Shown here: positions 24,714 to 26,145 of the stretch, one piece after another | Numbering within the stretch: the stretch's first letter is position 1 | How the letters are laid out: the number at the start of each line of letters is the position of its first letter | Source: an uncultured archaeon | GTDB taxonomy: Archaea; Asgardarchaeota; Thorarchaeia; Thorarchaeales; CAZPUN01 | Direction of reading: 5' to 3' | DNA: 32,000 nucleotides | NCBI GenBank assembly: GCA_964589775.1 | Contig: CAZPUN010000027.1 | Coordinates: 10,923-42,922, forward strand | Made by a program: the position numbers and the translations under genes | The notes under the pieces: generated by a model | Told to the model about the DNA's origin: nothing | What the model saw: only the letters and a program-made list of their open reading frames with translations | Databases searched by the model: none

Positions 24714-24801
24714 TTTTCCCTAGTTCCCTGTCCCATTTCTATTATTCTCTATGTAATAAAGTTTGCTAAAATATTTCCGCTTGGGGATTTTGTGCACGGC
24801 A

Positions 24802-24816
24802 CGAAAACATTAAATA
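24802..24816 (+). promoter_or_regulatory. BRE/TATA of rps26e
   Basis: CGAAAA-CA-TTAAATA, predicting a TSS near 24836-24840. Confidence 0.65.
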
Positions 24817-24864
24817 CATTCGCGAAAGCTATTAGTTGATAACAACTCAAGGAGAAAGGCGCAT

Positions 24865-25140
24865 TTGACAAAGAAAAGAAAATCCTCGGGCCGTCATAAG
24901 AGTAATGCCGGCGTAAAAGGCGTTGTCCAATGTAGTTATTGTGGAAGACTTGTTCCTCGTGATAAGGCTAAACGAGTGACAAGGTACATCTCACCTGTTG
25001 ATCCTCAATTAGCTCGCGAGCTAAGAAAGCAGGGCGCATATATTGCGAGACAGAAGCAAGTATCTTACTATTGTGTATCATGTGCGGTACACATTGGAAA
25101 AGTAAAAGTAAGGTCAAGAGCAGAAAGAAGGCAAAGATAA
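24865..25140 (+). CDS. rps26e: 30S ribosomal protein eS26
   Basis: TKKRKSSGRHK, VQCSYCGRLVPRDKA and YCVSCAVH..KVKVRS. TTG start after GGAG. Confidence 0.97.
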   Translation: MTKKRKSSGRHKSNAGVKGVVQCSYCGRLVPRDKAKRVTRYISPVDPQLARELRKQGAYIARQKQVSYYCVSCAVHIGKVKVRSRAERRQR

Positions 25141-25208
25141 TAAATAATTTAGAACACCATGAACGCCAATAAAATAAAAACTCAAATCGAACAAATATTT
25201 TGTACTTA

Positions 25209-25254
25209 GTGGAGAAGGCCTGAAATGTGCCTTTCTCCACGTTTTGAGGTGTTG
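25209..25254 (+). promoter_or_regulatory. Hairpin / anti-RBS element between rps26e and trmY
   Basis: Local stem GTGGAGAAGGC/GCCTTTCTCCAC. Its 3' arm plus the trmY SD is complementary to the rps26e leader at 24840-24866. Confidence 0.7.
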
Positions 25255-25256
25255 CT

Positions 25257-25814
25257 GTGAGTCATATCTTAGTTATGATAGCTAACCGTGCGAAAATCAA
25301 TAGTACTTTTTCATTGAAAGATCTAGCTGGTAGTGCGGGAAGATTAGATGTTGTTTGCCGTGTAGTTCTTAGTTTTCAAGAATCCAAGACTTTTGATACT
25401 CTTTATCTAGTTCTTCGTGGAATGAATGTTCCAATATCACTTGTTCTGCAAAAAGATGTAAAAAAATTCTATACCGAACAAGAAGTGGCACTTGATATTA
25501 AATCAGCAATCCTTGGAATGCCTTCGAGATTTTCTCTTTTAAATATGGATTATGAATCGGTTTTGGAAAGTTTATCAAAAGATCATACATTAGTTCTACT
25601 CGAAGAAACGGGTTCTGACATATTGTCTTATTCACTTGGTAATGATAATTATGCTTTTATATTAGGTGATGATAAAGGATTTCTAGAAGAGCAAATCCTA
25701 TATATGAAAAAAATATGCGATGTATCAATATCTCTGGGAAATATACCCTATCTATCAAGTCAAGTTGTAGCTATTTTAGATTATGTACTTTCAAAATGTA
25801 TTGAAGTGATTTAA
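25257..25814 (+). CDS. trmY: tRNA (pseudouridine54-N1)-methyltransferase, SPOUT family
   Basis: FSLKDLAGSAGRLDVVCR, LEETG, FILGDDKG and SISLG..YLSSQV. GTG start after GAGGTG. Confidence 0.88.
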   Translation: MSHILVMIANRAKINSTFSLKDLAGSAGRLDVVCRVVLSFQESKTFDTLYLVLRGMNVPISLVLQKDVKKFYTEQEVALDIKSAILGMPSRFSLLNMDYESVLESLSKDHTLVLLEETGSDILSYSLGNDNYAFILGDDKGFLEEQILYMKKICDVSISLGNIPYLSSQVVAILDYVLSKCIEVI

Positions 25815-25815
25815 A

Positions 25816-26145
25816 ATGTCTGAACCAAAAGCGATATCGCGACTTAAATCAAAGATAACAAAAGAAAATTTATGGATCTATATTCTTAGATTACTACAGG
25901 AACGTCCTCATTATGGTTATGAAATTAAAAAGGAAATAAAAGAACGCTTTAATTTTCAACCCGCCATGGTCAGTGGTTATGCAATCATTTATCGATTAGT
26001 TAAAGATGGTCTTGTGGAAGCGAAAGCGGATCCTAATTCGACTCGAAAATATTATGAAATCACACCTACTGGTCAAAAAGCTATGAAAGAGGCAAAAAGG
26101 ATCCTTTTGGAAACTTTGAATACTGTTTTTGATCTCACTGAATAA
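25816..26145 (+). CDS. PadR-family transcriptional regulator
   Basis: YILRLL.ERPHYGYEI, Y.IIYRLVKDGLV and RKYYEITPTG. Confidence 0.93.
   Translation: MSEPKAISRLKSKITKENLWIYILRLLQERPHYGYEIKKEIKERFNFQPAMVSGYAIIYRLVKDGLVEAKADPNSTRKYYEITPTGQKAMKEAKRILLETLNTVFDLTE

What the first reader, a model, noticed from the sequence alone, without database searches (positions are those of the whole stretch)
24840..25254. Candidate long-range RNA switch enclosing rps26e: leader, RBS and start codon pair with the downstream spacer, competing with an RBS-decoy hairpin
Seen in sequence: the rps26e RBS/start segment GGAGAAAGGCGCAUUU (24851-24866, including 2 nt of the TTG start) is fully complementary, with one G-U, to AAAUGUGCCUUUCUCC (25223-25238) about 370 nt downstream. 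After a 5-nt bulge (25239-25243) pairing continues between UAACAACUCAA (24840-24850) and UUGAGGUGUUG (25244-25254) at 10 of 11 positions; that segment contains the trmY SD. Complementarity begins at the TSS predicted from the TATA box at 24810. The same anti-RBS strand can instead pair locally with GUGGAGAAGGC (25209-25219), a near copy of the rps26e RBS lacking one A. Inference: two mutually exclusive folds. In the local hairpin both RBSs are free. In the ~26-bp end-to-end duplex the eS26 ORF is looped out and both rps26e and trmY initiation sites are masked. This could be eS26 autoregulation, translational coupling, or a 5'-3' closed mRNA. I know of no described element like this for archaeal eS26.
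Basis: partly seen in the sequence, partly recalled or inferred. Interest (0 to 1): 0.85.

Follow-up and report, generated by a model that had tools for sequence, protein, structure and literature searches.

The report
Fold-back switch on Asgard eS26 mRNA
In one order of Asgard archaea, the message for ribosomal protein eS26 can fold back so that the start of the next reading frame hides its own ribosome-binding site, and a conserved mini-gene between the two probably lets ribosomes flip this switch, which would be a new way for a ribosomal protein to control its own production.

Summary
The pairing is real and far beyond chance. The rps26e leader:25223-25254 duplex is the strongest such pairing among 1716 long and 615 short ORFs of this genome. 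It is kept in two sister species whose TrmY is only 52-57% identical. Across Thorarchaeales the rps26e Shine-Dalgarno (SD) region pairs with the start of the next ORF, with genus-specific compensatory changes (permutation z -4.7, 15 genera); 157 outgroup rps26e loci show nothing. uORF1 (25159-25209) is SD-less, starts in a C-A-N-N-AUG context, and is present in 52 of 52 anchored loci. uORF2 (25225-25260) has the 'decoy' as its SD, holds the anti-RBS, and its stop overlaps the trmY start. The long-range duplex dominates at equilibrium, so switching must be kinetic or ribosome-driven. Best model (about 0.5): eS26 autoregulation. eS26-loaded 30S subunits, which cannot form an SD duplex (PMC11698992), favour uORF1; a ribosome at its stop melts the local hairpin and frees the anti-RBS to close rps26e. 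Pairing, uORFs and covariation are shown from sequence; transcription, translation and eS26 dependence are inferred only. I found no described element like it.

The parts
24810..24817 (+). TATA-like box of the rps26e promoter; predicted TSS about 24838-24840
   Evidence: Sequence; TATA-like motif upstream of rps26e in 98% of order loci; TSS inferred from archaeal spacing
24840..24850 (+). 5' leader arm of the outer helix; pairs with the trmY SD region
   Evidence: changed in L197 to a perfect 10-bp helix
24851..24866 (+). rps26e RBS and start of the UUG codon; 5' arm of the core 15-16 bp helix
   Evidence: invariant in 3 species
24865..25140 (+). rps26e (eS26), 91 aa, single copy, weak UUG start
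   Evidence: PF01283; UUG or GUG start in 48 of 52 order loci
24865..25014 (+). Codons 1-50 under extra nucleotide constraint
   Evidence: 47 of 50 synonymous codons identical to L192, against 22 of 38 in codons 51-88 and about 53% in four neighbouring genes; Fisher p 1e-9
24886..24892 (+). CDS arm of a third long-range helix, pairing with 25217-25223 in the closed state
   Evidence: Pair probability 0.37-0.93 in three species; one G-U to A-U change
24949..24983 (+). Hairpin inside the CDS
   Evidence: one U-G to A-U double change at synonymous sites; L197 also has an alternative register
25151..25161 (+). SD-less start context of uORF1: A at -8, C at -4, A at -3, AUG
   Evidence: Genus-weighted A 0.87, C 0.89, A 0.97; no SD in 52 of 52
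25159..25209 (+). uORF1, 16 codons, ending at UAG 25207-25209 at the foot of the local hairpin
   Evidence: 16/14/18 codons in three species with the same stop; at least 10 codons in all 16 genera
25209..25219 (+). 'Decoy' arm = SD of uORF2 (GGAG 25211-25214); 5' arm of the local hairpin
   Evidence: the A-to-G change in L192/L111 keeps the pair as G-U
25223..25238 (+). Anti-RBS strand shared by both folds
   Evidence: invariant in three species
25225..25260 (+). uORF2, 11 codons; its AUG corresponds in position to the trmY AUG of Thorarchaeaceae; its UGA overlaps the trmY GUG (-4 overlap)
   Evidence: Same frame and stop in three species; anchor motif
25244..25254 (+). trmY SD region (SD 25246-25251), 3' arm of the outer helix
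   Evidence: SD energy -8.0
25257..25814 (+). trmY-family RNA methyltransferase, followed by padR (25816-26145)
   Evidence: PF04013, PF03551

Best explanation
A translational feedback switch that matches eS26 synthesis to the share of small subunits carrying eS26. SHOWN from sequence: rps26e is SD-led with a weak start codon; its RBS can be masked by an anti-RBS at the start of the next ORF; between them lies an SD-less uORF whose AUG, context, minimum length and stop position are conserved. INFERRED: (1) rps26e is translated while the anti-RBS is not yet made, is held in the local hairpin, or is covered by ribosomes translating ORF2. (2) eS26-free 30S uses SD-led starts; eS26-loaded 30S cannot form an SD duplex (shown for Saccharolobus) and favours the SD-less uORF1 AUG, by reinitiation after the rps26e stop or by internal entry. 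(3) A ribosome ending uORF1 sits on the ORF2 SD/decoy arm, opens the local hairpin and blocks ORF2 initiation, so the anti-RBS pairs with the rps26e RBS in a duplex of about 30 bp. (4) Reopening needs translation of ORF2, which in this family also relays ribosomes to trmY. High eS26 closes the mRNA; low eS26 keeps it open.
For: Duplex strength and genome rank. Order-wide cognate advantage only for windows at the ORF2 start (z -4.7 for -3..+33, z -2.5 for -33..+3; eight other windows between -1.9 and +0.4). SD-flank covariation p 0.0008 over 12 genera, with double changes between sister taxa such as L207/L208. uORF1 AUG in 52 of 52 against 0.22 per locus by shuffle; at least 10 codons in 16 of 16 genera against 9.8 expected (p<0.004); in frame with the conserved UAG in 12 of 16 genera (p 0.0008). 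SD contrast: rps26e 83% strong SD, uORF1 0%. Constrained folding: a ribosome on uORF2 abolishes both helices and frees the RBS (unpaired 0.54-0.79); one at the uORF1 stop leaves only the closed fold. uORF1 is kept in three rps26e copies not followed by trmY. eS26 competes with the SD duplex (PMC11698992). Precedent for autoregulation by ribosomes lacking a protein: bS21 (PMC9976891).
Against: No RNA, ribosome-profiling or probing data were available. Reinitiation in Haloferax nearly vanishes at about 20 nt (PMC10666635), while the stop-to-uORF1 gap is 18 nt here and mostly 6-24 nt in the order. The eukaryote-specific mRNA-contacting motif of eS26 is absent from archaeal eS26 (PMC3326325). The ORF2 SD is weak across the order (median -1.5). 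Several genera (g12, g5, g8) show no leader pairing better than non-cognate, and g13/g3 pair with a different segment. The core helix never varies within the window's family, so it shows no covariation there. The closed fold dominates even without a ribosome at the uORF1 stop, so the open state must be kinetic, which was not modelled.
Confidence: 0.5

Rival explanations
1. Ribosome-traffic coupling independent of eS26 level: the uORF relay carries ribosomes from rps26e to trmY, and the fold-back shuts rps26e whenever ORF2 is not being translated, limiting each mRNA to a burst of synthesis and tying eS26 to trmY-padR output.
For: Anti-RBS lies in the first codons of ORF2; -4 overlap uORF2/trmY is the usual coupling geometry (PMC6728339); ribosome on ORF2 opens the RBS; few U-tracts after the stop, 6% against 47% in outgroups.
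Against: Does not explain why uORF1 is strictly SD-less with a fixed -8/-4/-3 context that is not the general start signal, nor its retention without trmY. Odinarchaeia-like genomes keep the gene order without the element.
Confidence: 0.22
2. Classical operator: free eS26 (or another protein) binds and stabilises the closed structure or the constrained CDS hairpins; the CANNAUG motif is part of a protein-binding site rather than a start codon.
For: Strong synonymous constraint on codons 1-50 and conserved CDS hairpins in the window's family; eS26 binds single-stranded RNA and is loosely bound to 30S (PMC11698992).
Against: Frame, length and stop constraints after the AUG point to translation; the CDS constraint is weak or absent in most other genera; no conserved helix includes the motif.
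Confidence: 0.13
3. Processing-activated fold-back, as in hok or aapA mRNAs: the full transcript is inert, and cleavage at or near the conserved C-A removes the anti-RBS and leaves a downstream RNA with a 3-nt leader before the AUG.
For: Closed fold dominates at equilibrium; precedent in type I toxin mRNAs (PMC6733600); fixed C-A just upstream of the AUG.
Against: No evidence of a cut; no conserved bulge-helix-bulge (6 of 52 against 5.9 expected); no TATA box before uORF1 (1 of 52); would make the local hairpin unnecessary.
Confidence: 0.11
4. Chance or a DNA-level inverted repeat (inversion site, mobile-element end) with no RNA role.
For: An inverted repeat does flank the gene.
Against: Genome rank, covariation with G-U pairs and bulges, same orientation in all relatives, arms not repeated elsewhere in the genome.
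Confidence: 0.04

Closest known systems
bS21 (rpsU) autoregulation in Flavobacterium johnsoniae (PMC9976891)
   Same: A small-subunit protein that blocks the anti-SD controls its own SD-led gene through ribosomes lacking it.
   Different: There an extended SD alone suffices. Here the SD is ordinary, and control would run through a downstream SD-less uORF and a long-range anti-RBS. eS26 dependence is untested.
Long-distance SD sequestration in type I toxin mRNAs: aapA/IsoA, hok/Sok (PMC6733600)
   Same: An anti-SD far downstream folds back on the RBS; the closed fold is the most stable; local metastable hairpins compete.
   Different: Ribosomal protein gene in an operon; anti-RBS is mid-transcript and inside a translated ORF; no antisense RNA seen; no 3' trimming shown.
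E. coli infC-rpmI-rplT L20 operator (long-range pairing and pseudoknot; PMC1888825)
   Same: Long-range pairing masks an r-protein RBS and is linked to translation of a neighbouring ORF.
   Different: Opposite polarity: there the upstream gene masks the downstream RBS and the protein binds an rRNA mimic; here the downstream ORF masks the upstream RBS and no mimic was found.
Termination-reinitiation coupling in archaea (PMC6728339, PMC10666635)
   Same: -4 overlap between uORF2 and trmY.
   Different: The rps26e-uORF1 and uORF1-ORF2 gaps (mostly 6-24 and 8-32 nt) are longer than efficient coupling allows in Haloferax.
Eukaryotic Kozak context read with eS26, and uORF control of the GCN4/ATF4 type (PMC7166083, PMC3326325; GCN4 from my own knowledge)
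   Same: C at -4, A at -3, often C at -2, SD-less AUG opening a short ORF with unconserved peptide.
   Different: The uORF lies downstream of the regulated gene; +4 is never G; archaeal eS26 lacks the eukaryotic mRNA-contact motif; no scanning is known.
Archaeal r-leaders (L4, eL15, S15; PMC7247131)
   Same: Conserved cis RNA structure at an r-protein gene.
   Different: None is for S26 (0 mentions); those are local 5' structures.

Membership tests
Any Rfam family | Match above gathering score | tested here: not met
   Best 19.9 bits against 40, E 0.56
r-leader (autogenous operator) | Conserved structure in the 5' UTR of an r-protein gene that masks or controls the RBS | tested here: met
   Leader arm conserved and covarying, but its partner is 370 nt downstream
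r-leader (autogenous operator) | Binds the r-protein, often by rRNA mimicry | not testable with these tools
   No binding data; no order-wide conserved local helix found
bS21-type autoregulation by incomplete ribosomes | Protein blocks SD:anti-SD pairing | not testable with these tools
   Shown for S. solfataricus eS26 (PMC11698992), not for Thorarchaeales
bS21-type autoregulation by incomplete ribosomes | Exceptionally strong extended SD (below -13 kcal/mol) | tested here: not met
   rps26e SD -3.7 here, median -4.5 in the order by my helix model including initiation cost
Fold-back inhibition of type I toxin mRNAs | Distal anti-SD pairs with the RBS in the most stable fold | tested here: met
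   P about 1 in three species at 37 and 60 C
Fold-back inhibition of type I toxin mRNAs | Small membrane toxin ORF | tested here: not met
   Gene is PF01283; uORF peptides are unconserved and hydrophilic
Fold-back inhibition of type I toxin mRNAs | Activation by 3' processing and an antisense RNA | not testable with these tools
   No RNA data
BHB-processed or circularised archaeal RNA | Bulge-helix-bulge at the 5'-3' stem | tested here: not met
   6 of 52 against 5.9 expected; absent in both sister species
Regulatory uORF / leader peptide | Conserved start, open frame and stop position with free peptide sequence | tested here: met
Regulatory uORF / leader peptide | Demonstrated translation and effect on the regulated gene | not testable with these tools
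   No ribosome profiling
Kozak-type start signal | General enrichment of the context at starts genome-wide | tested here: inconclusive
   None in this genome (7.6% against 5.5% background); weak in SD-less starts of Thorarchaeaceae (10 of 52 against 7 of 104, p 0.03)
C/D box sRNA | Conserved C box and D box | tested here: not met
   Logos show neither box conserved; Rfam negative

The most novel reading that the evidence does not exclude
Thorarchaeales use a downstream uORF with a Kozak-like, SD-independent start as a sensor of eS26-containing ribosomes, and relay the signal backwards by a long-range anti-RBS to shut off rps26e. This would be a ribosome-composition sensor and an archaeal forerunner of eS26-assisted Kozak recognition inside a polycistronic mRNA.
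Probability: 0.3. Interest if true: 0.92.

Novelty: new variant of a known kind. Interest (0 to 1): 0.8.

Why it matters
How the change from SD-led to eukaryote-type, SD-independent start selection came about, and what eS26 does in Asgard archaea, are open questions. This locus puts an SD-led start and a strictly SD-less, Kozak-like start on one short mRNA for the very protein that blocks the anti-SD, and keeps them across an order. It offers a ready 420-nt substrate for toeprinting with and without eS26. Even on the weaker reading it is a conserved, covarying long-range translational control element with backward polarity in archaea, where few cis-regulatory RNAs are known.

Tried and rejected
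Rfam: no match. Expression: no RNA holder listed, which is no evidence either way. Contigs laid from two DNA runs showed no joints or inversions (contigs show presence only, and one run may be the source). Repeat or mobile element: arms not repeated in the genome. BHB splicing: not enriched. Internal promoter before uORF1 or in the spacer: TATA-like in 2% and 8% against 98% at the rps26e promoter; the sigma-70 scan does not apply to archaea. Pairing role for the CANNAUG motif: no order-wide helix; its complementarity to the trmY SD in this family has low probability (0-0.22). Programmed frameshift from uORF2 into trmY: the U-run is not kept in L197. Selenocysteine/SECIS: no in-frame UGA in eS26. 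General rps26e feature of TACK/Asgard: 157 outgroup loci mean z 0.05, motif in 1 of 157; 14 other Asgard loci lack it. RNAduplex with long interior loops was noisy for Thorarchaeaceae (mean z about -1.5) and was replaced by a short-helix model of my own. Earlier-findings searches gave nothing on this locus.

Full report
Setting. The window belongs to a 2.16 Mb genome that is the only member of its family among those held; the rest of the order is one family with many genera. A hit named Candidatus Thorarchaeota lies on a contig of the same length as G019 C1, so the order is Thorarchaeales. The locus is rsmB-type methyltransferase (minus strand), rps26e, trmY-family methyltransferase, padR. rps26e is single-copy.

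Observation. The leader-to-spacer duplex scores z -6 to -9 against shuffles in three species and beats all 45 non-cognate flanks. With a short-helix model it is -25.2 kcal/mol; the best of 1716 long ORFs is -20.6 and the next best of 615 short SD-led ORFs is -22.3.

Own family. Two sister species were found: L111/L192-194 (TrmY 57% identical) and L197 (52%). The spacer diverges except for a block around an AUG at 25159 and the block 25204-25253. The core helix is invariant, so it gives no covariation. The outer helix changes in L197 to a perfect 10-bp helix. The single change in the decoy keeps the pair as G-U. A third helix, 24886-24892 with 25217-25223, extends the closed state into the CDS. 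Codons 1-50 keep 47 of 50 synonymous codons, against about 53% in neighbouring genes (p 1e-9), and a CDS hairpin carries one double change.

uORF1 runs from the conserved AUG to the UAG at the foot of the local hairpin: 16, 14 and 18 codons in the three species, with length changes in multiples of three. uORF2 starts at 25225, uses the decoy as its SD, contains the anti-RBS, and ends in a UGA that overlaps the trmY GUG in all three species. Its AUG matches in position the trmY AUG of Thorarchaeaceae, where the first 6-9 codons form an N-terminal extension.

Order-wide test. 52 loci carry a UAG...CC..AUG anchor before ORF2 (L216 lacks it). All 52 have an AUG 54-72 nt upstream of the ORF2 AUG, against 0.22 per locus by shuffling; the window was chosen after seeing the data, but 16 of 16 genera cannot be chance. 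The context is A-8 0.87, C-4 0.89, A-3 0.97, never G at +4. The ORF is at least 10 codons in every genus (expected 9.8 of 16), ends between -32 and +7 of the ORF2 AUG in 51 of 52, and is in frame with the conserved UAG in 12 of 16 genera. It never has an SD, whereas rps26e has one and starts with UUG or GUG in 48 of 52. Leaders pair better with their own ORF2 start than with that of other genera (genus permutation, own family excluded: -9.6 against -7.2, none of 100,000 permutations as low). Sliding the target shows the advantage only at the two windows around the ORF2 AUG, and CDS windows in place of the leader show none, which argues against a GC-content artefact. The three bases 5' of the SD, not constrained by 16S rRNA, covary with the three bases after the anti-SD (p 0.0008, 12 genera), including double changes between sister taxa on the tree. 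The pairing is not universal: g13, g3 and g10 pair with the segment just before the AUG, and g12, g5 and g8 show little. Outgroups are negative, including small Odinarchaeia-like genomes that keep rps26e next to trmY.

One transcript? Not shown. U-rich tracts follow the stop in 6% of these loci against 47% of outgroup loci, and no TATA box lies in the spacer. No RNA run was listed.

Energetics. The closed fold has probability about 1 at 37 and 60 C. The local hairpin forms only when the rps26e RBS is occupied. A ribosome on uORF2 removes both helices. The trmY SD is mostly paired in every scenario. So the open state must be kinetic (the hairpin's arms are adjacent) or held by ribosomes; folding kinetics were not modelled.

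Mechanism. In S. solfataricus eS26 wraps the 16S 3' end, excludes the SD duplex, binds loosely, and in excess removes toeprints on SD-led mRNAs (PMC11698992). In Flavobacterium, ribosomes lacking bS21 preferentially translate the SD-led rpsU (PMC9976891). With that, the anatomy reads as a feedback loop: eS26-rich subunits start poorly at rps26e and ORF2 and use the SD-less uORF1; termination there covers the ORF2 SD and frees the anti-RBS; the mRNA closes. Against it: reinitiation over about 20 nt is poor in Haloferax (PMC10666635), the eukaryotic mRNA-contact motif is missing from archaeal eS26 (PMC3326325), and the ORF2 SD is weak. The CANNAUG context is not this genome's general start signal, which makes it a locus-specific signal but gives no general Kozak rule. 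I put this model at about 0.5, eS26-independent traffic coupling at 0.22, a protein-binding operator at 0.13, processing-activated fold-back at 0.11 and chance at 0.04.

Comparison and novelty. Each component has a precedent: distal anti-SD (PMC6733600), long-range masking in an r-protein operon (PMC1888825), -4 overlap coupling, autoregulation by incomplete ribosomes. It fails membership of each: no Rfam match, no extended SD, no toxin, no BHB, and no S26 leader among described r-leaders. Literature searches in the held library found no such element for eS26 or Thorarchaeota; subscription papers are not covered. I rate it a new variant of a known kind, with a 0.3 chance of the more novel reading.

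Noticed in passing
window 25170-25196 and G000 C23:114052-114078: A 27-nt A-rich stretch inside uORF1 has a 26/27 copy in an intergenic region on another contig (E 3e-6). It is not conserved in the sister species; low complexity may inflate the score.
   Followed up: partly
window 24765-24809: Block between rsmB and the rps26e TATA box is almost identical in the sister species and holds a palindromic 8-bp hairpin; possible regulator site or rsmB leader.
   Followed up: partly
L002, L004, L006, L198, L199, L203, L209, L211: About ten Thorarchaeaceae genomes carry a second eS26 gene with all four zinc cysteines kept, in other contexts and mostly without uORF1. L004 has its own 12-bp leader pairing at +91.
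   Followed up: partly
L017, L018, L026: rps26e copies followed by a convergent gene rather than trmY still keep uORF1 and the UAG-GG motif; leader pairing is clear only in L018.
   Followed up: partly
Thorarchaeaceae ORF2 start, -15..-1; G000 C23 16S rRNA: The conserved motif before the trmY AUG resembles the 5' strand of 16S helix 18 and is complementary over 7 nt to its 3' strand; the window's family has a different motif. Unexplained, may be chance.
   Followed up: partly
P0001, P0122: Public gene calls give this eS26 wrong upstream starts (102 and 126 aa) because of the UUG start.
   Followed up: yes
G028:C7:25290-25557 (L233): rps26e is split into two frames with a stop: frameshift or assembly error.
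   Followed up: no
L248-L327: SD-less starts in Thorarchaeaceae show a weak excess of C at -4 with A at -3 (10 of 52 against 7 of 104, p 0.03); worth testing with proper gene calls.
   Followed up: partly
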